Below are positions 6,540 to 59,921 of a DNA stretch of 64,000 nt, piece after piece (position 1 is the first letter of the stretch; every line of letters begins with the position of its first letter). The stretch is from the IMG/VR virus record IMGVR_UViG_3300049255_000202. The stretch is one strand, 5' to 3'. The translations under genes were made by a program, and so were the position numbers. The notes under the pieces are model-generated. The model saw only the letters and a program-made list of their open reading frames with translations, made no database searches and was not told the origin of the DNA. The DNA comes from an uncultured virus (IMG/VR IMGVR_UViG_3300049255_000202) (lineage: Duplodnaviria > Heunggongvirae > Uroviricota > Caudoviricetes).

Positions 6540-7145
6540 GTGCCGAAACGTGAGCTGAGCACCTCGTGGTGGAACGTCATCCGCCGCAAGATGACGGCGA
6601 CGCCGGCCAAGGAGTACCTCACCGCCTGCCCCGACTGCGGCTCGCTCATGTGGCTCATGCGCGGCAAGTACGGCCGCTTCTACAAGTGCCGTCGGCTTGA
6701 TTGTCGCGGGACCAAGGGCGCTCACCTCGACGGCCGTCCGCGCCGCGACACGGGGCCGGAACCGCTCATTCGAGCCCGCCGACAAGCCCGCGACGCCATC
6801 CACAAGATCGTCCTCGAACGCACCCGACGCTACCGCAAGGAGAACGCGGAGGCCAAAGCTCGGGGCCGCGCGTGGTGGACGCATCACCACCTCGCGTGTT
6901 GCGAGTTCGACTTTCAGGACGTGCTCGGCATGGCAAACCTCCCTCCCGTCCCGATTCACCCGTCGCGCCGCCGTCGATGGACTCCGCCGTGGGAGCCCAA
7001 GGGCTTCAATCTGCGGAAGCGGACCATCGAGGAGTGCGAGCGAATCGCCCAGGCGGCCGATGTCGTACTCCGTCGCCTCCGTGGTCACGCCTGGGACCGC
7101 GTGCTCGTCGATGCCCTCGACGCCTCCCTGAAAGCGTTCGAGTAG
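6540..7145 (+). CDS. zinc-ribbon protein, paralog of 7678-8250
   Basis: CPDCGSLM...GKYGRFYKC...C; C-terminal AWDRVLVD tag. Confidence 0.65.
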   Translation: MPKRELSTSWWNVIRRKMTATPAKEYLTACPDCGSLMWLMRGKYGRFYKCRRLDCRGTKGAHLDGRPRRDTGPEPLIRARRQARDAIHKIVLERTRRYRKENAEAKARGRAWWTHHHLACCEFDFQDVLGMANLPPVPIHPSRRRRWTPPWEPKGFNLRKRTIEECERIAQAADVVLRRLRGHAWDRVLVDALDASLKAFE

Positions 7146-7180
7146 CTGTCAGAAGTGGCGGTGCCCAGCGTCTAGTGGGC

Positions 7181-7681
7181 ATGGATGATCGACTCGCGGC
7201 AGCACTCGTCGCAACGTGGATTCAACAGGGCGCCCGTGGGCAGGTCCCCGCGGACGTCCTCCCGGCACTCGTCGAGAAAACCATCAACCGGGCGCCTGAG
7301 CGTCCCCGGTTCTACGCCAGGGCGGTAGGATGGCACTGGACCATCACCCAGCATCGGCGGTCCGTGACGCAGGTGCGTCAGGAGCGGCTCGCTGCACTCA
7401 AACTCGCCCGCGAGGAGGCGGAGCGTGAGAGGCGCGAGGCATTCGAGGTAGCTCGGGCCGAGTTCTACGAGCTTCTCGCACGGCTCGTCCCCACGCTCCC
7501 CGAGATCCAGGTCCGATGGCTCGGGATGGTGCGGCTTGTGTGCTTCGAGGGCGTGAAGCCGCATGACACGGCGGAGCACTTCCCTGGGATCTCCAGGGAC
7601 GCGCGCTACCAGTGGAAGCGACGCGGCATCACGTTGCTCCAGCCGATGGCCTCCGACACGTTGCTCCGGTTCCTGCGTTAG
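7181..7681 (+). CDS. possible sigma-factor region-4-like HTH protein
   Basis: C-terminal FEGVKPHDTAEHFPGISRDARYQWKRRG resembles an ECF sigma region 4 HTH; weak. Confidence 0.4.
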   Translation: MDDRLAAALVATWIQQGARGQVPADVLPALVEKTINRAPERPRFYARAVGWHWTITQHRRSVTQVRQERLAALKLAREEAERERREAFEVARAEFYELLARLVPTLPEIQVRWLGMVRLVCFEGVKPHDTAEHFPGISRDARYQWKRRGITLLQPMASDTLLRFLR

Positions 7682-8250
7682 CTCCGGCGCTTCTTCTTCG
7701 GGCGCGGGTTCTCCTCGAACACGTCGTCGTCCGCGTCGAGCACGTCCCAGACCGTCCGCACGCCGGGGAATTCCGCACGGACCAATCCGACGAGCTGCTG
7801 GCACTGGTCAGCCGTGAACGTCCCGATGTGCGCCTGGTCGTCCGCGAGCTTCATCGTCTTGCGCATCCAGGCGTAGGCCGCCGAACGTGACATGCGAGGC
7901 TTCTCGCCGTTCGTGTTCGTCTTCCAGAGCCGGTCGAACACGCGGTGCGCGAAGATGCGGGCCTTGCGCGTCTCCTTGTTCCCAGGCGTACCCTTCGGAC
8001 GACCGTCGTTGAGAGCGCCGTGGCTCGCCTTGCACGCCGGGTACTTCTCGCACCCGTAGAAGAGGCCGTGCTTGCTGTTGCGGAGCTTCATCGTCGCGCC
8101 GCACTCGGGGCACACGAGGTCGAACCGCTCGCCGGGAAACCCCATCCCGAGCTTCTCGTCGCGCAGAGAGATGTCCTCCGCCGCCGGCTTCGGAGGCTCG
8201 GCGAGCTTCGTTTCGAAGAGGTCTTCGAGGATGGCTCGCGAGACAGGCAT
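7678..8250 (-). CDS. topoisomerase C4 zinc-ribbon / DUF3268-like protein
   Basis: CPECGATMKLRNSKHGLFYGCEKYPAC, AHRVFDRLWK, AYAWM, AHIG; TVWDVLDADDD tag. Confidence 0.75.
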   Translation of the reverse strand: MPVSRAILEDLFETKLAEPPKPAAEDISLRDEKLGMGFPGERFDLVCPECGATMKLRNSKHGLFYGCEKYPACKASHGALNDGRPKGTPGNKETRKARIFAHRVFDRLWKTNTNGEKPRMSRSAAYAWMRKTMKLADDQAHIGTFTADQCQQLVGLVRAEFPGVRTVWDVLDADDDVFEENPRPKKKRRS

Positions 8251-8262
8251 CTCAGTTAGAAG

Positions 8263-8805
8263 TTACACCGGGTTCGGGTCTTCGTCGTCAAGGAGCCGCT
8301 CCCACGCCGTGGTCCGCTCGTATTTGACCCCGGTCTGGTCGCTCGACATGTGAGTGATCTCCCCGTCCGCAAGGGCGACGCCATTGAGGGTCACCCGGAC
8401 GGAGAACGCAAAGGTCTCGTCCTGCCTGTATTGGTGGAGGTCTTCCCCGACGACCCACGGTACCTCGGGAAAACTCCCAGGAAGTACGACCATTTGCATC
8501 AGCTCGACGTTCGGGAAGTCGAGGGCGACGTAGAACGTCCGGCACTGGGTGGCATCGCGGCGCCCGCTGGAGAGCACGTAGACCCCGTGGTCCACGATGT
8601 CGTACTCGCGCATGACGTTCGAGCCCTGCCGAGCGCGGGCCGTCTCTTCGAGCGCGGTGGTGCGGCCTGTTCGGACGCCGTCGACGAAGCGCGCGACCCG
8701 AGACACGCTGCCTTCGGTCTCCAAAGTGCGGACCGTGACGAGGGTGTCGAGGTTGCCGTCCCCCTCGACCGTAACGGCGTGTGTGGTGAGGTCGAGCAGA
8801 ATCAT
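8263..8805 (-). CDS. hypothetical protein with C-terminal TAWERLLDDED tag
   Basis: 180 aa ORF coupled to the upstream gene. Confidence 0.65.
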   Translation of the reverse strand: MILLDLTTHAVTVEGDGNLDTLVTVRTLETEGSVSRVARFVDGVRTGRTTALEETARARQGSNVMREYDIVDHGVYVLSSGRRDATQCRTFYVALDFPNVELMQMVVLPGSFPEVPWVVGEDLHQYRQDETFAFSVRVTLNGVALADGEITHMSSDQTGVKYERTTAWERLLDDEDPNPV

Positions 8806-11269: not shown

Positions 11270-11710
11270 GTGAAGCGGTCGAGGGTCCTATACTTCCACA
11301 GGGAGACGAACACGGGGAAGCTCCGCGCCCTCGAAGACCTCCACACCGAGTACTCGAAGAAGGCTCCCACCATCACGGTGAACCCCGCGTACACGTCGCA
11401 GATGTGCCCCTCGTGCGGGTACGTGAGCCGGGAGAACCGGAGGGGGATCGAGTTTCAGTGCCGCTCATGCGGCCGGATTTCACATGCGGACGTGGTGGGA
11501 GCGATCAACTTGCTCGGACGTTCCGAGGACAAACAGGTTGGTCTCGACGATCGCCCCGTCCGCGTGGGGGGCACTTCTGAGAGAGCGATTTCGCGCACGT
11601 CGGCGGAACAGTTCCTCGGAAGCGCCGCGTGCTGAGCTGGCAGCTTCCAGCCGGGGGTTCACTACCGGGGGTTCTTCGCGGAGATCCTCGGCACAGCCCC
11701 GAAAGCCGAA
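11270..11710 (+). pseudogene. tnpB: internally deleted IS200/IS605-type tnpB remnant with 3' non-coding end
   Basis: About 30 N-terminal residues fused directly to VNPAYTSQMCPSCG...FQCRSCG...HADVVGAINLL (zinc finger and RuvC-III); central domains absent. Confidence 0.8.
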
Positions 11711-13838: not shown

Positions 13839-16421
13839 ATGAGCCTCGCCCAGCGTGTTCTCCGCCGTTTCCTCGCCAAAGAAGGGCACGCACCTTCGCC
13901 CGAACCTCCGACGACGGCCCAGAAGGTCGCGGCGCGATTTCTCCAGGCGATGGAGTTCTCGACGCCCGAGGCGATGAAGGAGTACCTCCACGAGCACCCC
14001 CAGGCCGATCCGTCGAACCACTGGGTGAAGACGAAGGACGAGGCCCATGGGCCGAAAGACAACGGCGGTGGGTCGAAGGAAAAGTCGGAGGAGAAAGAGG
14101 AGGCCAAGGGGGAGAACGGCGGCTCGAAAGAGAAGCCGGAGGTTCCGAAGTCGAAGCCCCTGGCAAAGCCCAAGGAGAAGGCGCGCGTGGGCGTGGCTGG
14201 CCCCGAGGTGCCTCCGCCGCCGGCCAAGCTCCCGCGGCTGCCCAACCTCCGCGAGGACGAGAAGAAGTACGAAGAGCGCATGAACGACGCTTTCGAGAAG
14301 AACCCCGATGGGGCCGCGAAGGCGTTCTTCGAGTCGTGCGAGAAGAACAACTGGGTCTTCGAGACGGACGCGGCGAAGAACTTGCTCCCCGAGTGGTCGC
14401 GGCCGGACCTCCCCAAGGACGAGAAGACGGTCCATCCAGAACGCGCCGAGTTCCGCGGCAAGTACAACGCCGTGCTCCACCAGGCGGCGAACGCCATCGC
14501 GAAGCGAGCGTTCCTCAGTCGTCTGGACGACATCGCGAAGATGCCCGAGGAGAAGCGCAAGGTGCTCGTGACCTCGGGAGGGGTGGCTTGCCATGGCCGA
14601 GGGACACCCATCCTGATGTATGATGGAACCATCAAGCCTGTAGAGGATGTGGCCCTCGGGGATCGTGTGATGGGACCGGATTCCCGGCCCCGTACCGTTC
14701 AGGCGGTGACTCAGGGTCTTGGGCCGATGTACCTCGTGCGTCCCAAGCGAGGGGTGCCGTTCACAGCCAACGATCAGCACGTGCTGTCCCTCAAATATCC
14801 GATGAGGCATCAGCACTCGAAGACCAAGATCGTCAATCTCACCATCGAGGCTGTCCTGAGTCGAGGGGAACGCTTTCGAAAGGGGGCGTTTCTCTATCGA
14901 ACGGGCGTGCAGTACCCGACTCGTCCGGTTCCGTTGGACCCATATTTTCTCGGGCTGTGGCTTGGGGACGGTACAAGCTCCGCACCGCACATCACCTCCG
15001 CGGACCCCGAAATCGAGGTTTTCCTCCGGAGTTTTGTCCAAAAGTACCCGAGACTCCATCTGCGTAAGGGATCGAAGAAACGGAACAAGTCCTCGACCTA
15101 CGCCTTGGCTCTCTCGGGTTCTCCCATCGGCAAGAGTCCGGCCCGAAATCCGTTGACGATGGCGCTCGAGAAATTGGGCGTAATGAACAACAAGCACATC
15201 CCTGAGAAGTACCTCGTGAACAGTGAAGAGGTTCGGCTTGCGGTGCTCGCCGGTCTCCTCGACGCAGACGGGTACTATGATTCGAAACGTATAGGGTTCG
15301 AGTTCATCACTAGGTTCCCAAAACTCGCCGAGACGACCGCCTATCTGTGTCGATCTTTGGGTTTTGGAGTAAGCATGAAGGTGTGCCGAAAGAAGGCGCA
15401 GAACGGCTTCGAAGGAACTTATTACCGATTTTGGATCGCCGGAAATGACCTTCATCGGATTCCTACCCGTATTCAACGCAAACAAGCCGAAGCTAGACCA
15501 TCAATGCGCACCAACGGGCGCACATGTCGTGACGTGCTTCATACGGGGTTTACTCTTGAGCCCCTTGGAGTGGACAACTTCTACGGGTTCACTTTGGATG
15601 GGGACGGACTGTATCTGCTCGGGGACTTCACCGTCACGCACAACTCAGGCAAGGGCTCCGCACTGGCCGCCCAGCCGGACCTCGCCAAGAGCGTCGCGGC
15701 AACATGGGATGCGGCGGGCGAGCAGAATGCGACCGAGAACGAATGGCTGCTCGAGGAGTGTAAGAAGCGCGGGATTCGCCCGACCTTCCTCTTTGTCCAC
15801 GCCGATCCGAAGCAGTCCTGGCCGGGCGTCGTCGAGCGCGCCAAGGGCATCGGCCGCATGGTGGATGCCCAGCTCTTCGCGGACTCCTACGCGGTCGGAG
15901 CAAAGAACTTCGCGGACTTCCACGGCAAGCACAAGGACGAGGCCGACTTCGTGTTCGGCGTCTTCCAAGGGCGAGGCAAGCCGGCGAAGATCACGGAGAG
16001 CATGCCCGAGGAGGCACTCAAGCTCGACGTCGACGACATCTACCAGTTCGCCTCGAAGTACATCGACGAGAAGAAGGACGACCTTCCGGCGTACATCTAC
16101 GACGGCGCTACGATCGGACGGCGAGCGTTCAAGGCCGAGTCGGACAAGAACGCCAGCAGCTATTCCGAGCTATCATTCCGTGTCGCCGCCCGACACATCA
16201 GAGGACGACTCGCCATGGCCAACGCGAAGATGCCCCCGCAGGACAAGAAAGAGCTGGAGCGGATTCGGAAGCTCTTCGAGAAGGGGCTGAGCGACGCCGC
16301 CAAAGATCCGGAGAAGATGAACGAGCTTCGGATCAAGCAGGACCAGCTCGTCAAGCCGTGGGAGGACTACGTCAAGGGCTGGAAGGCCCCGAAGAAGGAC
16401 AAGGGCGAGAAGGACAAGTAG
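13839..16421 (+). CDS. zeta-toxin-like P-loop kinase protein with intein and RVAARF motifs
   Basis: Spliced P-loop reads TSGGVA-SGKGS; FVHADP...VVERAKGIGRMV; QRVLRRF, QKVAARF and FRVAARH motifs. Confidence 0.7.
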   Translation: MSLAQRVLRRFLAKEGHAPSPEPPTTAQKVAARFLQAMEFSTPEAMKEYLHEHPQADPSNHWVKTKDEAHGPKDNGGGSKEKSEEKEEAKGENGGSKEKPEVPKSKPLAKPKEKARVGVAGPEVPPPPAKLPRLPNLREDEKKYEERMNDAFEKNPDGAAKAFFESCEKNNWVFETDAAKNLLPEWSRPDLPKDEKTVHPERAEFRGKYNAVLHQAANAIAKRAFLSRLDDIAKMPEEKRKVLVTSGGVACHGRGTPILMYDGTIKPVEDVALGDRVMGPDSRPRTVQAVTQGLGPMYLVRPKRGVPFTANDQHVLSLKYPMRHQHSKTKIVNLTIEAVLSRGERFRKGAFLYRTGVQYPTRPVPLDPYFLGLWLGDGTSSAPHITSADPEIEVFLRSFVQKYPRLHLRKGSKKRNKSSTYALALSGSPIGKSPARNPLTMALEKLGVMNNKHIPEKYLVNSEEVRLAVLAGLLDADGYYDSKRIGFEFITRFPKLAETTAYLCRSLGFGVSMKVCRKKAQNGFEGTYYRFWIAGNDLHRIPTRIQRKQAEARPSMRTNGRTCRDVLHTGFTLEPLGVDNFYGFTLDGDGLYLLGDFTVTHNSGKGSALAAQPDLAKSVAATWDAAGEQNATENEWLLEECKKRGIRPTFLFVHADPKQSWPGVVERAKGIGRMVDAQLFADSYAVGAKNFADFHGKHKDEADFVFGVFQGRGKPAKITESMPEEALKLDVDDIYQFASKYIDEKKDDLPAYIYDGATIGRRAFKAESDKNASSYSELSFRVAARHIRGRLAMANAKMPPQDKKELERIRKLFEKGLSDAAKDPEKMNELRIKQDQLVKPWEDYVKGWKAPKKDKGEKDK
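14589..15644 (+). mobile_element. intein with LAGLIDADG homing endonuclease (352 aa)
   Basis: Starts CHGRGTPILMYDG, ends FTVTHN followed by Ser; LGLWLGDG and LAGLLDADG motifs; inserted in the P-loop. Confidence 0.93.
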
Positions 16422-17726: not shown

Positions 17727-18351
17727 AGGCTTCCTCTGACACCGGGGAACTCCCGGCCAACATTTTCAGGTTGAGCGAAGCGTTCAGGTCGCGATCGATG
17801 ACCGACCCGCACTCATCGCCAAGGACGCGCGTCCACGCGGTCGGGACGCTTTCCTCGCGCTCTTTCTCTGCTTTCGTGCGCCGCTTGTGACCGCGCTTGT
17901 GACCGTACTCCGGCGGCTTCCGGTACACCACCCGTGGCTGGATTCGGGCAATGGCAGCCTCGAGGGCCTGCCGGTCCTCGGGGTTGTCGACGACGATCTG
18001 GAACGGGATCTCGTTGTTGCGAGCCATCTCGATCAGCTCCAAAAGGCGCTCTCGGACCTGCTCGTTCATTTCCTCGATGGCCTGCTGGGCGTGCTCTTGG
18101 GATTCGGTGATGGCCTGCCCTGCCTGCTCGTGCGCGAGACGGATGGTGGCCGCCCACGGCTGGACGGACGTGATCGGGATGTCCCCGAAGACCTGACGGA
18201 CGACTCGCCTCGTCACGAGCCTGGTCATGACCCTCGTCGCGAGGGTGAAGAGTCCGAGGAGGAGGATCGCCACGAGGCATACGGCTCGGGTGGGGTGGGC
18301 GTCTACCCACCCTAGAGCCTGGTGCCAGCCGTTGACGAGGAGCTGGGGCAT
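17719..18351 (-). CDS. membrane-anchored hypothetical protein with TAWTRVLGDE tag
   Basis: N-terminal hydrophobic helix; GGTGTA-N10-ATG start. Confidence 0.65.
   Translation of the reverse strand: MPQLLVNGWHQALGWVDAHPTRAVCLVAILLLGLFTLATRVMTRLVTRRVVRQVFGDIPITSVQPWAATIRLAHEQAGQAITESQEHAQQAIEEMNEQVRERLLELIEMARNNEIPFQIVVDNPEDRQALEAAIARIQPRVVYRKPPEYGHKRGHKRRTKAEKEREESVPTAWTRVLGDECGSVIDRDLNASLNLKMLAGSSPVSEEAYG
17739..17811 (-). mobile_element. tnpB: short tnpB C-terminal scar from a different subfamily
   Basis: CGSVIDRDLNASLNLKMLAGSSPVS fused in frame to the end of the 17719-18351 gene. Confidence 0.65.
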
Positions 18352-23095: not shown

Positions 23096-23728
23096 TTGTC
23101 CATGCCCGACTGTGATGGTCTCCCCGAGCTGACGCCGGAGATGCTTCTCTCCTACGGGGGGATGCGGGAATTCGAAGGCGCCCAGGCCATGCGAGGCAAC
23201 CCTCCGCCGGCTCCGAACTTGGAGCGGATGTTCGAGGATACACCGCCGCCGCCAGCCGACGATTTCGGGATCTCGTTCGATCAAGACACCAGCGTGATCG
23301 ATGGGGAGAACTGGCCGACCCCGCGCGGCGGTAGCGAAGGGTACGGCCAAGAGGTCCGCTCGTTTCGGACCCCGGCTCGAGGCGAGCGCTTCAACATCAC
23401 ACGGACGACCGCGGCGGACATCCGAAGCCGTGCCGAGCCGGCTCCTCCCATGCCCCCCGACTACGTTGGCGGGCGGGCTCCGATGCGTGAGGTTGGCCGC
23501 GTCGGGCGTTTCCAGATTCTCTCGGAGCAAGACCCTCCGAGAGACTACGTGGCCGAGGCTCGCGCACGACTCGAGGACCGGGCGAACCGCGAGGCCGCAG
23601 AGCGACGACCTACGGCCCGCGAGTTGAACACCCGTCAGGCTGAGAAGCGCGACGCGGAGCATGCGATGATGCCGACGGCGTATGATCGTCTTCTCGGAGA
23701 CGATCCTTACGAAGACGACTTGGAGTGA
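23096..23728 (+). CDS. low-complexity hypothetical protein with TAYDRLLGDD tag
   Basis: 210 aa ORF. Confidence 0.6.
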   Translation: MSMPDCDGLPELTPEMLLSYGGMREFEGAQAMRGNPPPAPNLERMFEDTPPPPADDFGISFDQDTSVIDGENWPTPRGGSEGYGQEVRSFRTPARGERFNITRTTAADIRSRAEPAPPMPPDYVGGRAPMREVGRVGRFQILSEQDPPRDYVAEARARLEDRANREAAERRPTARELNTRQAEKRDAEHAMMPTAYDRLLGDDPYEDDLE

Positions 23729-24213: not shown

Positions 24214-24687
24214 ATGCCCAGCCGGTTGACGCGGGAGCTGCTCGTCCAGGTGGCGCAAACCGCCTTGGAGAAGGGCCGCATGGTCTTCCTCTGTCAGAAC
24301 CTCGACCAGGCGGACCGCCTCGCGGACAGGTTCCGAAAAGCGCTCATGGACGAGGCCATCGCCCAGGGCATGAGCGAGATTTCGGCGCGCACGCGGCTCT
24401 ACCGGCCCGCAGGCGCGAACCCGAGCTTCGTCCAGCTCACGAACGGCGGGTGGGTCTTCTTCTACCCCGCGTCGGACCTGAACCCCGAGGACGACATCGG
24501 GCACGCCGAGTCCGTGTTCTGGCCGAGCGAGGGCGGGAACTACGAGAAGGTGTCCTACGATTTCTGGCGTAGGGAACGCCGCAAGGGGTGTATCTACCGG
24601 CCCGTGACGACCGCCGAGAAGGTCGACGCGCCGAAGAAAAAGAGCGGCCGACCGACGGCATGGGATCGTCTCCTCGAAGACGACTGA
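24214..24687 (+). CDS. hypothetical protein with TAWDRLLEDD tag
   Basis: GGTGTA-N10-ATG start. Confidence 0.7.
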   Translation: MPSRLTRELLVQVAQTALEKGRMVFLCQNLDQADRLADRFRKALMDEAIAQGMSEISARTRLYRPAGANPSFVQLTNGGWVFFYPASDLNPEDDIGHAESVFWPSEGGNYEKVSYDFWRRERRKGCIYRPVTTAEKVDAPKKKSGRPTAWDRLLEDD

Positions 24688-25310
24688 TGCGGATCGAAGA
24701 GAAGGGCATCTTCAAAGTCGAACCCGACGCGACTCGTCTGGAGTACTGGACGTCGCTCGGATGGCGTCTCGTCGCCGTGCTCGAAAGCCAGGCGGCGGTG
24801 CCGTTCCAAGACACGGAGAACTTCCCGAACCCGCTCGGGGGGCTCGTCAACCAGCCGACCGGCGGGCTCCAGAACTACGGGATGGGCACGGCCCCCGTGT
24901 ACACGGCCTACAGCACGCGCCACCACCCGATGCGCGCATATTCGTTCCTCCTCGTGCTAGAGGAGGATTCGGCCATCGCGCAGATGAAGGCCGAGGTTGC
25001 CCAGCGCGACGAGAAGATTCGTTTGCTGGGTGAAGTCGAGAAGCAGGTCGGTGAGGCGCGCACGTTTGCCACGAGTCTCGAAGAACGGCTCAAGAACCTC
25101 GAGGTTGCCCACGCGCGAACACTCGGTGAACTCACCGCCGCGAACAAGGCCCATGCGGACTACAAGGCCGAGGTCGCGGAGAAGATGAAGGCAGCGGCCG
25201 ACATCATCGAGAAGGACAAGGATCGAAAGCGGACGGCTTACGAGCGTCTCGTGGAAGGAGGCTACGATGATTCAGTTGAGGGTGTTGAAGAGCGGGATGA
25301 GCGGGGATGA
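24687..25310 (+). CDS. coiled-coil hypothetical protein with TAYERLVEG tag
   Basis: ATG coupled to the upstream stop codon (TGATG). Confidence 0.65.
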   Translation: MRIEEKGIFKVEPDATRLEYWTSLGWRLVAVLESQAAVPFQDTENFPNPLGGLVNQPTGGLQNYGMGTAPVYTAYSTRHHPMRAYSFLLVLEEDSAIAQMKAEVAQRDEKIRLLGEVEKQVGEARTFATSLEERLKNLEVAHARTLGELTAANKAHADYKAEVAEKMKAAADIIEKDKDRKRTAYERLVEGGYDDSVEGVEERDERG

Positions 25311-27370: not shown

Positions 27371-28030
27371 TCAGTCCTCGTCGTCCGCAAGCACGTGGTC
27401 CCACGACGTTTTCGTAACAGCCTGCTCGGGCACCACGTAGGGCTCGAAGAGGCTCACGAATTCCTCGAGCCAGATCGTGCGCGGCGGCTTGGACGTGCTG
27501 ATCAGATCCACGAGGTCGAGGGTCACGCCGCTTCGGGCGTTCACGTGCATGCCGGCGATGCGCACCACCTCGTCCTCGCCCTTGAGGCGGTAGGTCTCGC
27601 CCGTGCGCACCCACGCGGGGCACGAGAGCATGTGGGCGAGCCCGTCCCCGACCGGCGCCTGCAGGGCCTCCATGACACCCTGGATGGCCGCCTCGGCGTT
27701 GATCCCGCGGATGTTCGGCATCCTCCACCGACCCGGATTTTCGGGAGGCGGCGCGGGCTCCATCATCTGGATCACGCGCTCCAGGTGCGTCACCCGCGTC
27801 CGGTACATCGCGTCCGCGAAGCGAAGCTCCTGCGAGTCAGGCCGGTCGAACCCCTCGCGGAACTCGACGCGCATGAGCATGGAGTACGGCTCGTGGGCAC
27901 GATCCGAAGCTGTGACCTGCTCGACGTGCCTGTCCTGCCGGAGCACCTCGACGTGGTGCCGGAACGTCGTCATCTGCTCGGGTGTGACGAACGGGTAGTT
28001 GAGATTCCATACTACTCGCTGAGCCGGCAT
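27371..28030 (-). CDS. hypothetical protein with TSWDHVLADDED tag
   Basis: 219 aa ORF. Confidence 0.65.
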   Translation of the reverse strand: MPAQRVVWNLNYPFVTPEQMTTFRHHVEVLRQDRHVEQVTASDRAHEPYSMLMRVEFREGFDRPDSQELRFADAMYRTRVTHLERVIQMMEPAPPPENPGRWRMPNIRGINAEAAIQGVMEALQAPVGDGLAHMLSCPAWVRTGETYRLKGEDEVVRIAGMHVNARSGVTLDLVDLISTSKPPRTIWLEEFVSLFEPYVVPEQAVTKTSWDHVLADDED

Positions 28031-28737
28031 TGGCGGTCCTCAAGTAGGTGCTGCCACGCCGCAAGCCGAACGTCGAGGGGAAGTTCCCCGACGGCCATGG
28101 CCTCGAGACGGCCGTAATCGTGGCAGTCTGGGTCGTAGCCGATGTGGGTGAGGATTGTCGGCAACTGTGACCAGTCCGCCCAGGGCTGCTCGACCGTGAT
28201 CTCCCAGTGGCGGGGGCCCGTCTCGAACACGCTCACGGTCCACGACGCGACTTCCCACAGGTCCGCGTCCTCGAACTCACTCCCAACCCGGTACGCACTC
28301 GTCACCGCGAAATCCGTCTCGGTGCCGGGCTCGAGCAGATTGCGGCGGATGACGTATTCGTGGACGGTGGTGCCATCGCCCATGCACTCGGCGGGCGGAG
28401 CGGCGTGTAGTTTTCGCGGAACTGCCACCAGGAAGAGGGCCACCCCATGGTCCGTGTACTTCACGTGGTAGGCGATCCAGCCGGGCCGCATGTCAACGAC
28501 GACGGCGAACAAGTAGGTGAGGTCGGGGTGGGTGGTCTTGAACGCCGTCTTGGGCTTGACCCACCATCGAACCGTTCCTGCGCTACGTTGCGGACGATGC
28601 TGCCCTGAATGGCGGGTTCACTCTCGCCGAGAGTCCGCTCATCATGCTTGGGCTCCGGGCCGATGGTAGTCCGACCCCCAAAGAAATCCGAGCCGGTCGC
28701 AGAGCCAGCCCAACGGTGTACAGAGGAAGGGAGCCCA

Positions 28738-31585: not shown

Positions 31586-32397
31586 CGGCGCCTGTGGCCG
31601 CCGACGCGCGCCTTCGCATCTTGGAGGCGGCGGTTGCGGTCCATGGCCGAGGCACGCTTGCGGTCGCGCGGGTCGTCGAGCAGTTCGTCTAGCTCAACCG
31701 GCTCGGGCGGCGAGGCCGGGGGCTTCACGGGTTTGTAAGTCGGGCGCTCGAACAGCTCGTCGTCGAGGATGCGATCGTAGGCGGTCGGGAGCCGGAGACG
31801 CTTCTCCTCGGCGGACTTCTCCTTGGCGACCCGCTTGACCACGACGTCCTTCTTCGTGTGCGGCAAGACCACGAAGAGGCACCACACGGCGTAGTGCGTG
31901 AGGCACGCCTTGCACGTCGGCGTCTCCCCGCGCGCAAAGTGCTCGTCGTAGTGGGTCTCGAACTGATTCGTTGTGACGTTGAGGTGCTGGTGAAGGTACT
32001 CGCTGATCCCGCAGAATGTGTACGGGTTGCGCGCTCCAGTGTTGTGCGCGACGCCGTGCAGCACTTCGTTGCGACGGAGGCACACCTGCGTGCGAGCGGT
32101 GCGCAACGGCACGAGGAAGAACTGGTAGACTTGCACGGTGCCAAGACGCACGGGCTCGACGTCGAACGTCCGATCGCTCACCTCGACGCGGTAGCGCGCC
32201 TTTTTCTCGGGGATGTGCCGGCTCCATGCCCCGTGGATGCGCTTGACGTTGTAGTCGTCGCCGCGGAAGCGAACGCCCTCGCTGTAGGGCAGCACGAGCA
32301 CCCCGGACTGCGAATGCAGCTCGGTGATGGTCCCGAGTCCATCGTTCGTGGGCGCGTGCCACCCGACCGGAATCCAGTAGGAGGGTCGGGCGCTCAC
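31582..32397 (-). CDS. hypothetical protein with TAYDRILDDE motif
   Basis: H...C...CKAC putative zinc site; GTG start inferred. Confidence 0.6.
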   Translation of the reverse strand: MSARPSYWIPVGWHAPTNDGLGTITELHSQSGVLVLPYSEGVRFRGDDYNVKRIHGAWSRHIPEKKARYRVEVSDRTFDVEPVRLGTVQVYQFFLVPLRTARTQVCLRRNEVLHGVAHNTGARNPYTFCGISEYLHQHLNVTTNQFETHYDEHFARGETPTCKACLTHYAVWCLFVVLPHTKKDVVVKRVAKEKSAEEKRLRLPTAYDRILDDELFERPTYKPVKPPASPPEPVELDELLDDPRDRKRASAMDRNRRLQDAKARVGGHRRR

Positions 32398-33033: not shown

Positions 33034-33587
33034 GGGTCGGTGTACCCTGATCGTATGAGGACGTTCACGTTCAAGGGGCGCGCGTACTACCGCTCGGGCA
33101 GGGTCGGCGACGGGCACGCACTTCACGCACTCGACACGGTGGTGACCGTCGAGGCCCCGTCGCTTCGCATCGCCCGGCAACTCGTGCCGGCGGGCATGCG
33201 CCACGTGCGCAGCCCACGGAAGTAGCTCGTGTTCGTCTGCGAGTCGTGCCTCCGGTCGAAGTACACGAACGAGCCGAGCTTCTCGCAAAGCGAAGGACCG
33301 TGCGAGCTTTGCGGCAAGCACCGCGCGTGCTCCGACATCCCGAGCCGAGCGCTTCGGCCCCGAGGCGCCGTCGACACCGCGACGAAGCGTGTCCGTGAGG
33401 AGCAGACGGTTCAGCCGGAGTCGCCTTTGGAGCGGATGGACAGGCTTTTGGGCGACGACGACGATTGATCGTCCCGTGGCCGGGTCCTAGTGGCGTAGTT
33501 AGCGTCCTGGTGTATATGTCGAATGCCCCACCAGTCCGGTAGGGCATTGCAACGGGCGGTCAAACCCGTCGCAGAAAGGACCATACC

Positions 33588-39311: not shown

Positions 39312-39543
39312 TCGTCTCCCCGAAGTACGCGGTCCCACGCGGTTGGGTAGCGCGCCTCGCGAAGCGCTTTCGTAGCGTAGTCCTTGCCCGCTTGGAGCAG
39401 CTCTTCGGGCGTGAAGTCGCGGTGCGTGTACTCCGGTCCAGCTACCGTGTGTTCGGCTCCGCAGGCTTCGGCCCACATTTCGGTACTGGTCAGGTTTGAA
39501 ATGACGCACCCCAGGCGAGGCGACGCGGCCCCACGATGAGGAT

Positions 39544-42462: not shown

Positions 42463-43053
42463 CTATTCCCCGTCGTCGTCGAGAAGGCGCGTCCAGGCGT
42501 TCGTCGTCGGATGGGCCTTCTCTTTGATGGCCCGAGTGAGCGGCAGCGGGTCCTCGTACTCGGGGTCTGGATTGAGCGTCGATACCGCTATGGTAGAGAG
42601 GGTCATCCCCGTGGTCGCGTCAAGGATCGACACAACCCACGGGCATCGCTTCATCTTCTCGACGCGCTCGATGCGCAACCCGATGCGCCACGAGGAAGAG
42701 ACGCCGGTCACGGGATCGATGCAGACGGTGGCGACCTCGAAAGGCTCGGGGGCGATGTTGACCTTGGTCGGCTCGACGTGCCGCTGATACCGCGGAGCGG
42801 GTCCGCGACCCCACCGGGACGCGGGTCCCCACGCGGGGCCTTGCTCCATGGAAGGGTTCGGCCGAAGTGGTAGTCGGGTCTCGTAAAGGGTCCGGCCGCC
42901 GCGAGCGATGCTCGCCGTGGCCTCCATGGGTTTCGAGGGGCCAACCGTCAAAAGCCCCGTCACCACGTGATCCCCGATCGAGCGGACCACCACGGACGTC
43001 GGGCACTCCTCGGGCATGATGATGAGCGGCTTGCGAGTCAGATCGATGAGCAC
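42463..43053 (-). CDS. hypothetical protein with NAWTRLLDDD tag
   Basis: 196 aa ORF. Confidence 0.65.
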   Translation of the reverse strand: MLIDLTRKPLIIMPEECPTSVVVRSIGDHVVTGLLTVGPSKPMEATASIARGGRTLYETRLPLRPNPSMEQGPAWGPASRWGRGPAPRYQRHVEPTKVNIAPEPFEVATVCIDPVTGVSSSWRIGLRIERVEKMKRCPWVVSILDATTGMTLSTIAVSTLNPDPEYEDPLPLTRAIKEKAHPTTNAWTRLLDDDGE

Positions 43054-43409: not shown

Positions 43410-43889
43410 CTAGAAGTCGAAGTCGTCGGCGTCGATCCGCTGCCACGAGGTTCGGCGCGGCCCCGTGTACGGTGGCGGCGCCGGCGGACCGAGCGGGATC
43501 TCCGCACACGGGTTCGTCGATCCGTAGCTCCGGTCCATCAGGTTGTACCGGCGCCGCTGGATCTCGTGGAGGTTGATGTTCGGGTTCGACGCGATCTCGA
43601 ACTCGGGCACTCGGACGCGCTGCCCGCGAATCGGAAGTCGCTCGTCGGGGTCCAAGAGCCGCGCGTCGAGTTCCCGTCGACGGGTCGCGATGTCCTGCCG
43701 ACGTACCGGCGGGAGCGGGTCAAGGAACGGATCGCCCTGGGCCGAAGCACTCCGGTACGTGGCCGCGTGAGGTTCCCCGGCAAACTCGGACCGAAGCCGT
43801 TCGACCGCGCGAGTGTTCACGACGACTTCGCCGGGCTCCTCGCTCGCCATGAACTGGCCCTGGTATTCCTGGGTGCCGGTCCGCAACAT
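43410..43889 (-). CDS. hypothetical protein with TSWQRIDADD tag
   Basis: 5' end abuts the tnpB mini-element; start uncertain. Confidence 0.55.
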   Translation of the reverse strand: MLRTGTQEYQGQFMASEEPGEVVVNTRAVERLRSEFAGEPHAATYRSASAQGDPFLDPLPPVRRQDIATRRRELDARLLDPDERLPIRGQRVRVPEFEIASNPNINLHEIQRRRYNLMDRSYGSTNPCAEIPLGPPAPPPYTGPRRTSWQRIDADDFDF

Positions 43890-43920
43890 CGCGTGAGCTA
43901 GCTCGTGCCTCTCCCCTGGG

Positions 43921-48128: not shown

Positions 48129-48323
48129 ATGGTGGCTGCGAGAGCCCCGACCTACTACCGGCTGCTCGAACGCATCCTCGACTCGTGCGAGCTTCCCGAG
48201 GACTTGAGGGAGGTCGTCGAGATCAATCTTTGGCGGGGCGCCCCGGACCTTCGGCAACAGCCCGTTGTGCGGGCGAGGACGCGGAAAACGGCGTGGGCGC
48301 ATCTTCTCGACGAAGACCTGTGA
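48129..48323 (+). CDS. small protein with TAWAHLLDED tag
   Basis: 64 aa ORF ending in the shared tag. Confidence 0.55.
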   Translation: MVAARAPTYYRLLERILDSCELPEDLREVVEINLWRGAPDLRQQPVVRARTRKTAWAHLLDEDL

Positions 48324-50219: not shown

Positions 50220-50486
50220 TCACGGGTCCTCATCCTCGAGCACGCGGTCCCATGCGTTCTGGGGCTTTTTCTTCGGGAGGAGGTAGGCGTTGTCTTTCTC
50301 GGCCTCCTCCCGCGACTTGCCTCGCTCCATCGCGTACTCGACGCGAGCCCGGAACTTGAGCCGGCCGGCGTGCTCCCCGTAGCAGTCGGGGGAGCTGCCT
50401 CCGACGCCGTACTTGTACTCGACCTTCTCGCCGTACTTCTCGCCGAGGGCCTCGTAGTTGTGGCCGTTCTGTCCGCTCATCACCAA
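50220..50486 (-). CDS. small protein with NAWDRVLEDED tag
   Basis: 88 aa ORF ending in the shared tag. Confidence 0.6.
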   Translation of the reverse strand: MVMSGQNGHNYEALGEKYGEKVEYKYGVGGSSPDCYGEHAGRLKFRARVEYAMERGKSREEAEKDNAYLLPKKKPQNAWDRVLEDEDP

Positions 50487-51776: not shown

Positions 51777-52031
51777 ATGTCGGAGAAGAAGCCAAAGCCC
51801 AAGAAAGACGTGTGGACGGTGAGGGTCACGTGCGACCTGACGCCTCCGCACAATTTCCTCCGCGAGACCCGGCACACGAGCGAAGAGACGGCGATCAAGG
51901 CCGCCGAGAAGGCGCACAAAGAGTTCAAGGGGACGCCCGGCTTGAAGGTCGAGATGCGTCAGCCCGAAGACCCTGACACGCCCCGCCGGACCTCGTGGGA
52001 GCGGATCGTCGCGGCGAAGCCCGTGGTGTAG
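51777..52031 (+). CDS. small protein with TSWERIV tag
   Basis: MSEKKPKP...PRRTSWERIVAAKPVV. Confidence 0.55.
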   Translation: MSEKKPKPKKDVWTVRVTCDLTPPHNFLRETRHTSEETAIKAAEKAHKEFKGTPGLKVEMRQPEDPDTPRRTSWERIVAAKPVV

Positions 52032-54748: not shown

Positions 54749-54871
54749 GTGAAGAAGTCCCGCTTTCTCTACCTGCACACAGAGGCAAATGGGAGTACCT
54801 CTACGGTCCGGCACAGCCTCAAATCAGGTGGTTGCTCAGTAACCAACTTTGAGCAACTTCCCGAGTACGGT
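54749..54871 (+). mobile_element. tnpB-derived mini-element, copy C (first codons plus right end)
   Basis: VKKSRFLYLHTEANG resembles the 11270 N-terminus MKRSRVLYFHRETN; 54792-54871 matches 50890-50811 with 3 mismatches. Confidence 0.8.
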
Positions 54872-56630: not shown

Positions 56631-57319
56631 TCACTCGCGTCCCTTCCGTACCTTGTCGAGGATAGCCTGGATGGCCTTGAACCGCCGATGGCTCGTCTCC
56701 CCGAGCTTGGCGAGGTCGAGCGGCTTGACCTTGGCGTCCACCCACGCAGCGAGGGACTCGGGCGCGTCGTCGCCGAAGTACACGAAGTGCGGCTCGACCG
56801 GGAGCAGCTCACGCACGAGAGCCCGGCTGTGGGTCACGATGAACGCGCCGTAGGTCATCTTGGGCAGGTCCGCCGCGAACTCGCGGAGGGCCACGCCAGC
56901 CCCAGCCGCCCACCCGTCGGACAGGCCGAGGTCGGGCTCGTCCCAGAACACGACGTGCGGTGTCTCGCGCGAGCGGCACGTCGAGATGCCGGCGAGAACC
57001 GTGTGCGCCGAGTTCTCCCCGGTCGATTGCCACGACTCGTCGCCGTAGATGAACCCGCGGAGGCCGCCGTACTCCCCGCCTCGGCCTTCCATCGAGATCG
57101 GCATCGCTTCGACCTTCGCCTCGCGGCAGATGGCGGTCACGAGCCGGCGGAAGAAGCTCTTGCCCGAGGCGTTCTCCCCAGGCACACGACGAAGTTGCCC
57201 TTCCCGCGAACCCACGTGTGTTCGATCGCGACTTTGCCCTTGTCGTTCGGGTGGAAGTAGTCGAGGTCGAACACGTGCGGAAGGAGGGTCTCCACCGACG
57301 TGAACTTGCGCTCCTTCAT
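56631..57319 (-). CDS. ABC-type P-loop ATPase, frameshift near 57180
   Basis: GENASGKS, STGE, FWDEPDLGLS and IVTHS motifs. Confidence 0.75.
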
Positions 57320-58457
57320 GGGGTTACTACGGCGGCGCGTGGGTGGCGATCAACTACCGAACATGACGCAGCCGAGGTAGATGACGCCTCCGAACAAGAG
57401 CGCGAGGACCGAGCAAATGAGCTTGCAGTGGCATTGGCGCATCGGCCAGCAGATCTCGCAGCCGGTCACGCGCTCGTAGATGCCGCTGTGCTCGGGCATG
57501 GAGGAGAGGGACGATGCTCGGGGTCGCGATGCCCGCGGGGAAGTCCGAGAGGCAGTCCTCCTGCCACTCGTTGAACTTCATGCCGGGGAGCTGTTCACGA
57601 ACCGTGCGGAGGTACTCCGCCTCGTAAGCCCGAGCGCGTTTGATGGCCTCTTTGGACTCGTGGGCGATGCGGCCGTTGTATAAGTCCACGGCCTGAGAGC
57701 CCACGAACGTGATCGCCCCGAGCTGATAGCACGGGTCTTCCTTGACCATCTCGCACCATCGGTGCGGGACGAAGAGGATCGCTTGGGGGAGCGCCGGGTT
57801 GCCGTGGACGGCGATGGTGAGGGTCGGCACGTTCGGCCCCATGGCGATCGGGACGATCCGGTGCCCCAAGATGTCCCATACCATCGAAGCGAGATCGCGC
57901 ACGACCGGGTTCGGGAACATCTTGAGGGTCGCGACACCGACCGTGAACGTATCGCCCATGGCCTGGGCCGTGACCCGGAGCGGATCGTCCTTGGGGAGGT
58001 TCTCAACCCGCTCAGCGTTCTCCGTCTTGAACGCCGCGAGCATCTCGGCAACGGTCCGGATGTCCATGCTACGAGCCGGGATTCTTCCAGCCCTCCTGGG
58101 CTCGAATCTCCATGATCTGCTCGATGGATAGCTTGGCCGCGTCCTCCGGCCACCCTTTGGTTCGGCAGTACGCCATCGCACGAGCAGAGGAGCCCGACGC
58201 ATGACCTCAAGAGGATGCCCCGCCGGCTCGAACATGGGCATCACGTCGTAGAGGCGCCACTTGAGCCATTTGTCGGCGCCTTTCTCGCTCGTGTGGAAAG
58301 ACCAGTCCTCGTAGTTGATCCTCCGGACCGTCAAGATGCGAGGCCTGGCCAACGGCTCGAGAAACTTGAGGTCCGCCTCCCGAAACCACGGGTATGCCTT
58401 CGCCAACACGGCGAGGAACTGAGACCGTAGCGGTTCGGGAGGCGGACCGGGCACGCG

Positions 58458-59921
58458 CTACTCGGCGTCACCGAGTGCGTCGAGCTTCTCCCACGACGTC
58501 TTGCCCCACTGGGCGAAGGCACTGGAGATGGCCTCGGGCGTGAAATGCTCGACGCGCTTCATGGCGATGTCCTCGACGTAGCTGGACGGGCCGAGCTTCC
58601 GGCTCACGGCGTCGGCATACATCGAGAAGCACCCTTCCTTCGTCTCGTAGAGCTTCGGGCTCACCTTCATGCGGGCCAGCTCTTTCGCGGACTCGTGAGC
58701 GAGGGCCGTGTCGATGCCGAGGGTGAACCAGTGCTTCTCCTCGTGGAGCTTCTCGATGACCTTCGTCCAGTCTTTGTAGGGCTCCGGCTTGAACGATCCG
58801 CCGCGCCCCGTCGTCTTGTACCCGAGGAGCGTGATACGGAGGTCTGCCTCGACCGCCTCTCGGATGATCTGCTCGAACTGGTACATGTTCTGAGCGCCCA
58901 TCACGACCTGTACGTTGCATTTCGCGGTCGGGATGTCGTTCAGTTCGAGCAAGGCCGCGAGCTTCTTCACGTCGTCTCGGTCGGAAACCGAGAACGCGAA
59001 CGCGCCGATCAGTTCCATGACTTTCGGCCATACGGCCGGGTCACGAAGCCACGCGAGGTTCTTCGTCGTGAAGTTGGGCACAATGCCCACGTGCTTGAAG
59101 ACCGAGAGGATTTCGAGGAACTTCGGGTGAAGCGTGGGCTCCCCGCCGCCGATGGCGACCTCGAAGACGCGCATCCCGCCGAGCGTGTACGCGAGCTTCG
59201 AGATCGCGTCGTAGTCCGCGTGCTTCCCGTCGTGCGTCGAGCCCTGGTAGCAGAAGGCGCAGCCGAACGGGCATTGGTCCGTGATCTTCACGTCCACGAG
59301 TTCGGGAGCGAACGCCTTGACGATCTGGCGCTTGCTCGTCGGGTCCTCGAACGAGAACCGGACTTTCGTGCCGTTCACACGGTCGAACACAACCCAGTAG
59401 TTGCCCTGGGGGTCCTTGCGCGCCACGAGACCACCACCCCGGCAGTCGCGCGGGAGCGGGAGCACGAAGTCGTGGTCCCCGGCAAGCGGGTGCTCGGCGT
59501 CGTCATTGTCGTTCCCGCCGAGAATCACGACGTCCTCGCGCATGAAGAACGCGCGGAATTCCTCGAAGAATTCCTTGTCGACGCCCTTGCCGTTCCACGC
59601 GGTCGGCAAGTCGTAGACGGACTGGTGGTCGACGTAGCCGTCCGGCGCCGACTCGTTGCCTTTGACGTGGCCGGGAGTCCAGGCGTCGCACACCGCGTTC
59701 GCGATGTCGTCTCCGACCTGGGAGCGGAGCGCGTGGTGAAGGTGGATCGCGACGTACTGCCGCTTGGCCGCTTCCGAGGCCGCAGTGAAGTAGGACCATC
59801 CGAAGTCGAACCCCGCCGCATCGGCGTCGTCCGTGACCTTCTGAGAAGGCTTCACGAACACGATGGAGTGCGTCGAGCTGGAGTTGGTCGCGAAACCGAG
59901 ACGAGCTTTGTGGACGAGCAT
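58458..59921 (-). CDS. radical SAM protein with N-terminal GFATNSSS domain and TSWEKL tag
   Basis: CPFGCAFCY and GGGEPTLHP motifs. Confidence 0.85.
   Translation of the reverse strand: MLVHKARLGFATNSSSTHSIVFVKPSQKVTDDADAAGFDFGWSYFTAASEAAKRQYVAIHLHHALRSQVGDDIANAVCDAWTPGHVKGNESAPDGYVDHQSVYDLPTAWNGKGVDKEFFEEFRAFFMREDVVILGGNDNDDAEHPLAGDHDFVLPLPRDCRGGGLVARKDPQGNYWVVFDRVNGTKVRFSFEDPTSKRQIVKAFAPELVDVKITDQCPFGCAFCYQGSTHDGKHADYDAISKLAYTLGGMRVFEVAIGGGEPTLHPKFLEILSVFKHVGIVPNFTTKNLAWLRDPAVWPKVMELIGAFAFSVSDRDDVKKLAALLELNDIPTAKCNVQVVMGAQNMYQFEQIIREAVEADLRITLLGYKTTGRGGSFKPEPYKDWTKVIEKLHEEKHWFTLGIDTALAHESAKELARMKVSPKLYETKEGCFSMYADAVSRKLGPSSYVEDIAMKRVEHFTPEAISSAFAQWGKTSWEKLDALGDAE

What the first reader, a model, noticed from the sequence alone, without database searches (positions are those of the whole stretch)
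6540..59921. About 17 unrelated proteins share a C-terminal T(A/S)(W/Y)xR(L/V/I)LxDD peptide tag
Seen in the translations: AWDRVLVD (6540), TVWDVLDADDD (7678), TAWERLLDDED (8263), TAWTRVLGDE (17719), TAYDRLLGDD (23096), TAWDRLLEDD (24214), TAYERLVEG (24687), TSWDHVLADDED (27371), TAYDRILDDE (31582), variant RMDRLLGDDDD (33229), TAWDRVLRGDD (split gene, 39308), NAWTRLLDDD (42463), TSWQRIDADD (43410), TAWAHLLDED (48129), NAWDRVLEDED (50220), TSWERIV (51777) and TSWEKLDALGD (58458). The motif usually sits at or near the C-terminus after a Lys/Arg/Pro linker. Carriers include zinc-ribbon, membrane-anchored, coiled-coil and radical SAM proteins. Codons differ between copies, so the conservation is at the protein level and is not a DNA repeat. 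Inference: a genome-wide docking or addressing signal, a short amphipathic helix plus acidic tail, that recruits diverse cargo to one partner such as a phage compartment, RNA polymerase, replisome, protease adaptor or export machine. I know of no named family for it.
Basis: partly seen in the sequence, partly recalled or inferred. Interest (0 to 1): 0.92.

Follow-up and report, generated by a model that had tools for sequence, protein, structure and literature searches.

The report
Shared C-terminal docking tag, huge phage
About one in five proteins on this piece of an uncultured huge phage, otherwise unrelated to each other, carry the same short helix with an acidic tail near their end, which looks like a portable address label read by one partner that is still unknown.

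Summary
A core pattern [T/S/N]-[A/S/V]-[W/Y]-x-[R/H/K]-[L/V/I] gives 18 six-frame hits, 13 of them within 12 residues of a stop; random sequence gives 4.6 and 0.8. A stricter pattern with the acidic tail gives 11 hits against 0 in every control.

Synonymous codons vary freely. The carrier bodies are unrelated except for one zinc-ribbon pair. In 18 orthologues of one carrier the tag is invariant while the linker drifts. In a second family 23 of 30 homologues keep the core, and the most distant ones lack any tail.

An AlphaFold model shows a globular domain, a disordered linker and a short terminal helix. A related 13-kb contig has four tags on unrelated proteins. Five complete relatives and 185,579 cell genomes show no such usage.

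My reading is a portable docking helix for one shared reader, probably phage-encoded. Three paper searches found no description. This scan noted the same tag earlier on other DNA (e1-6032191). A second recurrent peptide ([R/K]-V-A-x-R-F) marks other proteins here.

The parts
7086..7115 (+). Tag in zinc-ribbon protein 6540-7145 (His in place of the N-cap Thr)
   Evidence: Pfam Zn_ribbon_Top1 hit. Core ends 13 aa before the stop.
7726..7755 (-). Variant tag (V in place of R/K) in DUF3268 zinc-ribbon protein 7678-8250
   Evidence: Same register as the orthologues' tag. Coordinates are computed from residues 166-175.
8281..8310 (-). Tag in orphan 8263-8805
   Evidence: (profile score 20.7).
17812..17841 (-). 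Tag in protein 17719-18351, which has a hydrophobic N-terminal segment; 34 aa follow the tag
   Evidence: The trailing 34 aa weakly match the Cas12f1-like_TNB (TnpB C-terminus) model, E 0.009, below Pfam's cut-off.
23675..23704 (+). Tag (Tyr form) in orphan 23096-23728
   Evidence: (19.4).
24655..24684 (+). Tag in the 157-aa protein 24214-24687 (P0038)
   Evidence: 22.6; invariant in 18 orthologues apart from one L-to-V; helix 149-155 after a disordered linker.
25233..25262 (+). Tag (Tyr form) in helix-rich protein 24588-25310; 19 aa follow
   Evidence: (13.8).
27380..27409 (-). Tag (His in place of Arg) in orphan 27371-28030
   Evidence: (20.6).
28033..28062 (-).
   Evidence: (16.0).
31756..31785 (-). 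Tag (Tyr form) in 31582-32652; 61 aa follow, including a second acidic Leu-Leu stretch
   Evidence: (16.5).
33433..33465 (+). Weak variant without an aromatic residue at the end of the 79-aa Cys-rich protein 33229-33468
   Evidence: Profile score is only 4.1, so membership is doubtful.
39314..39343 (-). Tag at the end of a short ORF (56-83 aa) at 39308-39559
   Evidence: (20.8).
42472..42501 (-). Tag (Asn cap) in orphan 42463-43053
   Evidence: (18.3).
43422..43451 (-). Tag in orphan 43410-43973; the tail ends in an aromatic residue
   Evidence: (21.2).
48288..48317 (+). Tag in the 64-aa protein 48129-48323
   Evidence: (19.2).
50229..50258 (-). Tag (Asn cap) in the 88-aa protein 50220-50486
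   Evidence: (20.2).
51990..52019 (+). Tag core without an acidic tail in 51525-52031
   Evidence: (17.3).
58470..58499 (-). Tag (Lys form) at the end of radical SAM protein 58458-60152
   Evidence: Radical_SAM; 12.9.

Best explanation
The tag is a portable short linear docking motif. It is a two-turn amphipathic helix with these elements:
- an N-cap Thr/Ser/Asn, often preceded by Pro or Lys/Arg;
- Trp or Tyr at position i, an aliphatic residue at i+3 and Leu at i+4, which together form one hydrophobic face;
- a conserved Arg at i+2;
- two to four Asp/Glu residues after the helix.

It sits on a flexible, often basic tether at or near the C-terminus of otherwise unrelated accessory proteins.

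I infer that the hydrophobic face fits a groove, and the acidic tail a neighbouring basic patch, on one common cytoplasmic partner. About a fifth of the proteins encoded here would then be brought to the same place or machine.

I infer that the partner is encoded by the phage rather than the host, because the tag is missing from cell genomes and changes or disappears between phage lineages.

Shown: the motif, its enrichment, its position, its protein-level selection and its portability. Inferred: that it binds a partner, that there is one partner, and that the partner is phage-encoded.
For: - Enrichment and C-terminal position far beyond the controls.
- Synonymous codon variation.
- Carrier bodies are unrelated. 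Only 1 of 153 pairs aligns over the body; the rest gave nothing at E<=10 or only short, weak matches.
- A mean charge of +1.06 in the 10 aa before the core and -2.69 in the 8 aa after it, against a background of about 0 (SD about 1.5).
- The AlphaFold2 model of carrier P0038 has a domain at 1-130 (block pLDDT mostly 74-85, with a dip to 53-62 around residues 51-70), a linker at 132-144 (pLDDT below 50) and a helix at 149-155.
- In 18 orthologues of 71-83% identity the ten tag residues are invariant apart from one L-to-V change, while the linker varies.
- In the DUF3268 family 23 of 30 homologues keep the core. The five most distant, shorter homologues lack any tail, and two carry a different tail.
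- The DUF3268 gene matches 427 records of GenBank phages, and in none does the match cover 80% of the query. In the 25 rows listed it stops at residue 154-177, at or before the start of the tag, which begins at residue 166.
- Related contig L010 has four tags in 13 kb, on proteins with no BLASTP match (E<=1e-5) to any window ORF.
- Evidence against a cellular hub motif: the back-translated tag gave 16 matches in 185,579 species genomes, 13 of them internal to larger proteins and 3 C-terminal.
- Lineage specificity: 0 pattern matches in five huge-phage records that share the 462-aa protein (three of them 100% complete) and 0 in LR745208.1. A de novo tail scan re-finds the tag in the window but finds nothing in the complete 241-kb relative G005.
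- One carrier has a hydrophobic N-terminal segment followed by basic residues, and another is a radical SAM enzyme.
Against: - No partner was identified, so binding itself is untested.
- Three of 16 core tags lie 19-61 aa from the end, and two listed copies are degenerate, so the requirement for the C-terminus is loose.
- The cell-genome scan used one narrow pattern (exact Thr-Ala-Trp, CGN Arg and CTN Leu codons), so a looser host motif could have been missed.
- Absence from the five relatives was tested with a single pattern, plus one de novo scan of one genome.
- Only 64 kb of this phage could be read.
- Gene calls are my own heuristic based on GC at codon positions.
Confidence: 0.55

Rival explanations
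1. The tag is a degron or adaptor-docking peptide. It would deliver the carriers to an AAA+ unfoldase-protease, of host or phage, for timed removal, in the way SspB's tethered C-terminal peptide docks on ClpX (recalled).
For: - It is a tethered C-terminal peptide on a floppy linker.
- The carriers are mostly small orphans of the kind expected to act early.
- Earlier notes from this scan named the same analogy.
Against: - The last residue is not conserved (E 5, D 3, G 2, V 2, others 1 each, in 16 tags), and 0 of 16 end in a non-polar Ala-Ala type tail.
- The tail is strongly acidic.
- No unfoldase or ClpP-like gene is recognisable in the window.
Confidence: 0.15
2. The tag is a virion-loading signal. 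It would bind the inside of the procapsid (scaffold, portal or shell), so that accessory proteins are packaged and injected with the DNA, as the capsid-targeting sequence of T4 internal proteins does (recalled).
For: - It is a portable label on many small orphans.
- The clade encodes an HExxH peptidase-like protein that occurs fused to other enzymes in relatives (L004 1387 aa, L007 1519 aa).
- A second peptide marks module boundaries.

Both of the last two points fit processed, delivered proteins.
Against: - One carrier appears membrane-anchored, and another is a radical SAM enzyme that needs cytoplasmic cofactors.
- No structural genes lie in the window.
- The known capsid-targeting sequence is N-terminal and cleaved.
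Confidence: 0.12
3. The tag is a replisome or ssDNA-binding-protein type docking tail. It would tether the carriers to a phage sliding clamp, a polymerase or an SSB-interaction site, like the T4 clamp-binding peptides, the T7 acidic tails or the SSB C-terminal tip (all recalled).
For: - The tag is hydrophobic plus acidic, near the C-terminus.
- Two carriers are Topo-I-type zinc-ribbon proteins.
- 15 of 30 DUF3268 homologues end in an acidic stretch tipped by Phe.
Against: - 0 of 16 tags fit the beta-clamp motif Q-phi-x-[L/M]-[F/L] or its hexamer form as defined in PMC11139829 (passages read; test).
- 0 of 16 fit a PIP box, and only 1 of 16 ends in an aromatic residue.
- The recognisable DNA and RNA enzymes of the window (four methyltransferases, the CCA-adding enzyme, the 2H phosphoesterase, the MazG-like enzyme, the kinase, the SmaI-like nuclease) lack the tag.
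Confidence: 0.1
4. There is no dedicated reader. The helices would associate with each other or drive a condensate through basic lead-ins and acidic tails. Alternatively, the tag is a hitch-hiking 3' cassette spread by recombination with no function.
For: - The charge asymmetry around the helix.
- Weak 27-31-nt DNA families at the tag sites.
Against: - A helix of 7-8 residues is short for stable bundling.
- DNA similarity stops at the tag and synonymous sites vary.
- The tag is invariant in 18 orthologues while the adjacent linker drifts, which argues for selection on the peptide.
Confidence: 0.06

Closest known systems
Sliding-clamp-binding C-terminal peptides of phage T4 proteins gp43, gp55 and gp33 (recalled; named in earlier scan notes)
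   Same: A short hydrophobic and acidic peptide sits at the C-terminus of several unrelated phage proteins and is read by one phage-encoded hub.
   Different: - The sequence differs: there is no Trp-x-Arg-Leu-Leu core.
- T4 has a handful of carriers, all in DNA synthesis or transcription. Here there are 18 carriers in 64 kb, mostly orphans.
- No clamp gene is recognisable in the window.
Bacterial beta-clamp binding motif Q-phi-x-[L/M]-[F/L] or Q-phi-x-[L/M]-x-[F/L] (PMC11139829, passages read)
   Same: It is a short linear motif, often in disordered C-terminal tails, shared by many unrelated partners of one hub.
   Different: The motif is defined by Gln and a terminal Phe/Leu. 0 of 16 tags fit it.
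Acidic C-terminal tails of T7 gp2.5 and gp4, and the SSB C-terminal tip (recalled)
   Same: An acidic tail with a hydrophobic element docks on a basic patch of a partner. Close orthologues of the DUF3268 carrier end in D-x-[D/E]-[L/P/I]-F.
   Different: In those systems the very last aromatic residue and the carboxylate are read. Here the conserved element is the upstream helix, the trailing residues vary, and only 1 of 16 tags ends in an aromatic residue.
SspB C-terminal ClpX-binding peptide on a flexible tether (recalled; named in earlier scan notes)
   Same: The architecture is the same: folded body, floppy linker and a short terminal docking peptide.
   Different: That peptide is basic and hydrophobic, not acidic. 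It occurs on one adaptor rather than on a fifth of a proteome.
Capsid-targeting sequence of T4 internal proteins (recalled)
   Same: It is a portable address label shared by unrelated phage proteins.
   Different: That label is N-terminal and is removed by the prohead protease. This tag is C-terminal and also occurs on an apparently membrane-anchored protein.
Eukaryotic aromatic-x-x-aliphatic motifs with acidic flanks (LIR/AIM, and the kinesin light chain W-acidic motif) (recalled)
   Same: The core is [W/Y]-x-x-[L/V/I] with acidic neighbours. All 16 tags have this core, and 12 of 16 have an acidic pair within six residues after it.
   Different: Those readers (Atg8, TPR of kinesin light chain) are eukaryotic. 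This is a resemblance only, and membership is not proposed.

Membership tests
Beta-clamp binding motif (CBM) | Q-phi-x-[L/M]-[F/L] or Q-phi-x-[L/M]-x-[F/L] (PMC11139829) | tested here: not met
   0 of 16 tag tails match. The definition is taken from passages read.
PCNA PIP box | Q-x-x-[aliphatic]-x-x-[aromatic]-[aromatic] (PMC11139829) | tested here: not met
   0 of 16 match.
SSB C-terminal tip or T7-type acidic tail | An acidic run ending in a hydrophobic or aromatic last residue with a free carboxylate (recalled) | tested here: not met
   0 of 16 end in [I/L]-P-F and 1 of 16 ends in an aromatic residue. However, 15 of 30 DUF3268 homologues end in Phe.
SSB C-terminal tip or T7-type acidic tail | Binds a basic patch on a replisome protein | not testable with these tools
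   No replisome gene of this phage could be read. Only 64 kb are held.
ssrA-like or ClpX C-terminal degron | A conserved non-polar extreme C-terminus (recalled) | tested here: not met
   0 of 16 end in [L/V/A]-A-A. The last residues are E 5, D 3, G 2, V 2 and others 1 each.
T4 capsid-targeting sequence | An N-terminal position with removal by the prohead protease (recalled) | tested here: not met
   13 of 16 tags lie 4-13 aa from the C-terminus. Cleavage could not be tested.
Short linear docking motif (generic kind) | A short conserved peptide in a disordered region, shared by unrelated proteins, under selection | tested here: met
Short linear docking motif (generic kind) | Binds a defined partner domain | tested here: inconclusive
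   One three-chain complex job gave no answer. No other candidate could be tested.

The most novel reading that the evidence does not exclude
A clade of uncultured huge phages runs its own intracellular protein-addressing system with at least two labels.

The first is the C-terminal [T/S/N]-A-[W/Y]-x-R-[L/V]-L acidic helix, carried by about a fifth of the accessory proteins. One dedicated phage receptor reads it and gathers these proteins at a single site or machine.

The second is the [R/K]-V-A-x-R-F peptide at module boundaries of enzymes. It is linked to a conserved HExxH peptidase that releases or sorts them.

Together this would be a phage-encoded sorting code comparable in logic to organelle targeting signals.
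Probability: 0.2. Interest if true: 0.9.

Novelty: new variant of a known kind. Interest (0 to 1): 0.66.

Why it matters
If one receptor reads this label, a fifth of the dark-matter proteins of these huge phages would share a common destination. That gives a handle on proteins that have no homologues and no predicted function.

It would also give a natural, transplantable 10-residue tag plus reader pair. And it would show that large phages organise their proteomes with address codes rather than by diffusion alone.

This scan has now met sequence-different tags of the same build in several huge phages, so the principle may be general.

Tried and rejected
- **Complex prediction.** I folded the 462-aa conserved protein P0037, the HExxH core (residues 255-610 of the 747-aa protein) and the last 40 aa of P0038 together. 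The score was 0.00 in both runs, the verdict was 'no answer', and the controls were not run. This is no evidence either way.
- **P0037 as a dedicated reader.** Its homologues occur in five huge-phage records with 0 tag-pattern matches, so its presence is not coupled to this tag. Its confident model (pLDDT 96.4) has no clear PDB match (Foldseek best E 0.18; VIA best Z 7.0, rmsd 5.1 over 130 residues).
- **Whole genome.** None is held. Metagenome records cannot be searched whole.
- **Relatives with the tag in IMG/VR.** The strict tag pattern gave 0 hits. The P0038 family gave none.
- **GenBank phages.** The 890-aa protein, P0037 and P0038 gave no match. The 747-aa protein hits one uncultured 485-kb record, which lacks the tag pattern.
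- **RNA genes.** Rfam and tRNA scans found nothing.
- **Paralogy of the two 334-aa operon neighbours of tagged genes.** There is none.
- **Earlier-notes look-ups by place or by sequence.** Nothing was found.
- The motif tests were run on tags read from the window file instead.

Full report
**What the window is**

The window is 64 kb at 63-67% G+C, with no N. No whole genome is held.

I called genes with a simple model of G+C by codon position. It gave 71 ORFs covering 70% of the window, and I added 7 ORFs by hand.

Most products are orphans. The recognisable ones are:
- four DNA methyltransferases;
- a SmaI-like nuclease;
- a CCA-adding/poly(A) polymerase-type enzyme;
- a LigT/Acb1-like 2H phosphoesterase;
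- a MazG-like pyrophosphatase;
- an AAA_33 kinase;
- a DUF1848 protein and an 860-aa protein, both with Hint/LAGLIDADG inteins;
- a radical SAM protein;
- two Topo-I-type zinc-ribbon proteins.

Two larger orphans place the window in a clade of uncultured huge phages:
- A 747-aa HExxH protein has 36 database relatives, on contigs of up to 469 kb. Its own contig is at least 128,790 bases.
- A 462-aa protein (P0037) has 418 representative clusters. Its relatives lie in IMG/VR records of 241-436 kb with terminal repeats and 100% estimated completeness.

The DNA is held by moss-metagenome runs.

**The observation**

I found an 18th in 28012-28512(-).

| Measure | Observed | Control |
|---|---|---|
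| Core pattern, six-frame hits | 18 | mean 4.55 in 60 Markov sequences |
| Core pattern, within 12 aa of a stop | 13 | mean 0.83 |
| Strict pattern with acidic tail, six-frame hits | 11 (9 near a stop) | 0 in 60 Markov sequences |
| Strict pattern in 71 predicted proteins | 9 (7 near the end) | 0 in 500 residue shuffles |

Further checks:
- A reduced-alphabet de novo scan of the last 20 residues re-finds the tag as the top 5-mer and 6-mer.
- 13 of 16 core tags end 4-13 residues before the stop.
- One of the three exceptions (17719-18351) is followed by 34 residues that weakly match the C-terminus of TnpB-type proteins (E 0.009, below cut-off). I suspect a secondary fusion there.
- Codons differ freely: only 42% are identical at identical non-Trp residues.
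- At DNA level the tag sites form only 27-31-nt families at 71-89% identity, with no flanking similarity.
- Among the 153 carrier pairs, only the two zinc-ribbon proteins align over their bodies (E 1e-10). The other pairs give nothing at E<=10 or short, weak alignments, and the better-scoring of these sit on the linker and tag.

**Anatomy**

- The consensus is [K/R/P]-[T/S/N]-[A/S]-[W/Y]-x-[R/H/K]-[L/V/I]-L-x-[D/E]-[D/E].
- Nine of 16 tags have Pro, and 13 of 16 have Lys/Arg, in the three residues before the cap.
- Mean charge is +1.06 before the core and -2.69 after it, against about 0 for random positions.
- The AlphaFold2 model of the 157-aa carrier P0038 (18-row alignment) has a folded domain to about residue 130, a linker at 132-144 with pLDDT below 50, and a helix at 149-155.

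**Selection and portability**

- In 18 orthologues of P0038 (71-83% identical) the ten tag residues are invariant apart from one Leu-to-Val, while the linker just upstream varies.
- The DUF3268 zinc-ribbon carrier gives a divergence series of 30 homologues:
  - 23 keep [T/N/S]-[A/V/I/M]-W-[D/E]-x-[aliphatic] in the last 40 residues.
  - Close orthologues end in an acidic stretch tipped by Phe.
  - The window copy has Val in place of Lys/Arg, in the same register.
  - Two homologues carry a different tail.
  - The five most distant, shorter homologues stop right after the domain.
- The same gene matches 427 GenBank phage records. In none does the match cover 80% of the query, and in the rows listed it stops at or just before the tag.
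- Contig L010 (13 kb), which carries a 70%-identical P0037, has four tags on proteins with no match to any window ORF.
- L007, L009 and L001 carry Tyr/Phe variants.

**Where the tag is not**

- The strict back-translated tag has 0 hits in IMG/VR.
- It has only 16 hits in 185,579 species genomes. Of these, 13 are internal to larger proteins and 3 are C-terminal.
- A degenerate pattern has 0 hits in five huge-phage records that share P0037, and 0 in LR745208.1.
- The complete 241-kb relative G005 shows no enriched tail motif in 279 predicted genes.

So the tag is lineage-specific and is not a general cellular motif. That is why I favour a phage-encoded reader. The patterns used were narrow, which limits this argument.

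Candidates in the window were:
- P0037. Its model has pLDDT 96.4 with no PDB match.
- The HExxH protein.
- An 890-aa protein that the ESM Atlas places with GHKL/Hsp90-like ATPases. Its feature score is 0.99 to clusters in which 14-30% of members carry HATPase_c_3, and its structural TM-score to HtpG clusters is 0.36/0.48.

Nothing links any of them to the tag. The one complex job gave no answer (see Tried and rejected).

**Comparison with known systems**

- The tag fails the sequence definitions of the beta-clamp motif and the PIP box.
- It lacks a conserved last residue, unlike SSB/T7-type tails or ssrA-type degrons.
- It is C-terminal, unlike the T4 capsid-targeting sequence.
- It works most like these tethered docking peptides, but it is a member of none.
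- Three full-text searches found no paper describing such a tag in phages. I saw only the listings and abstracts, plus passages of PMC11139829.

**Verdict**

This is a real, selected, portable C-terminal docking tag carried by about 18 of about 78 ORFs.

Noticed in passing
window 21452-21469(+), 22703-22720(+), 61504-61521(-), 13923-13940(+), 63628-63645(-), 19842-19859(-); also L001-L020: A second recurrent peptide, [R/K]-V-[A/V]-x-R-[F/Y].

- It lies near the C-termini of the 2H phosphoesterase, the CCA-adding enzyme and the HExxH protein.
- It also lies about 30 residues from the start of the HExxH protein and of the 860-aa intein protein.
- It gives 8 six-frame hits against 0.75 expected (maximum 3), and 6 hits in 71 proteins against 0.12 in shuffles.
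- In relatives it sits 10-25 aa from the start of the HExxH homologue.
- In the L004 fusion protein it sits at the module junction and at the very end.
- It may be a processing or recognition site of the HExxH enzyme.
   Followed up: partly
window 44329-45717(-): The 462-aa protein P0037 is widely conserved in huge phages (418 representative clusters). Its AlphaFold2 model is very confident (pLDDT 96.4) and mostly helical. It has no clear match in the PDB by Foldseek or VIA-align.
   Followed up: partly
window 33588-36260(+): The 890-aa protein has no Pfam, PHROG, NCBIfam or PDB sequence hit. The ESM Atlas places it with GHKL/Hsp90 (HtpG)-like ATPases. It lies beside two divergently oriented DNA methyltransferase genes.
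   Followed up: no
window 61492-63735(-); L004 1-4164; L007 7814-12373: The HExxH (H-E-L-G-H ... E-A-F-A-E) peptidase-like protein is conserved across the clade. In relatives it is fused to a CCA-adding enzyme (L004, 1387 aa) or embedded in a 1519-aa protein (L007).
   Followed up: partly
window 43913-44154, 50900-51141, 11483-11622, 50811-50890 / 54792-54871: A repeated element of about 240 nt (97% identical direct copies, plus 92-96% inverted copies) overlaps a transposase-fragment ORF at 11270-11635 that has PHROG transposase hits. These are probably IS or TnpB-type remnants or a MITE-like element.
   Followed up: no
window 2161-4011(+) and 13839-16421(+): Two intein-bearing genes. One is a DUF1848 protein with a LAGLIDADG insert. 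The other is an 860-aa protein with Hint and homing-endonuclease domains, whose host protein is unidentified.
   Followed up: no
window 31582-32652(-), last 61 aa: After its tag, this carrier has a second acidic Leu-Leu stretch resembling the aromatic-less variant at 33229-33468. This may be a tandem or degenerate second copy.
   Followed up: no
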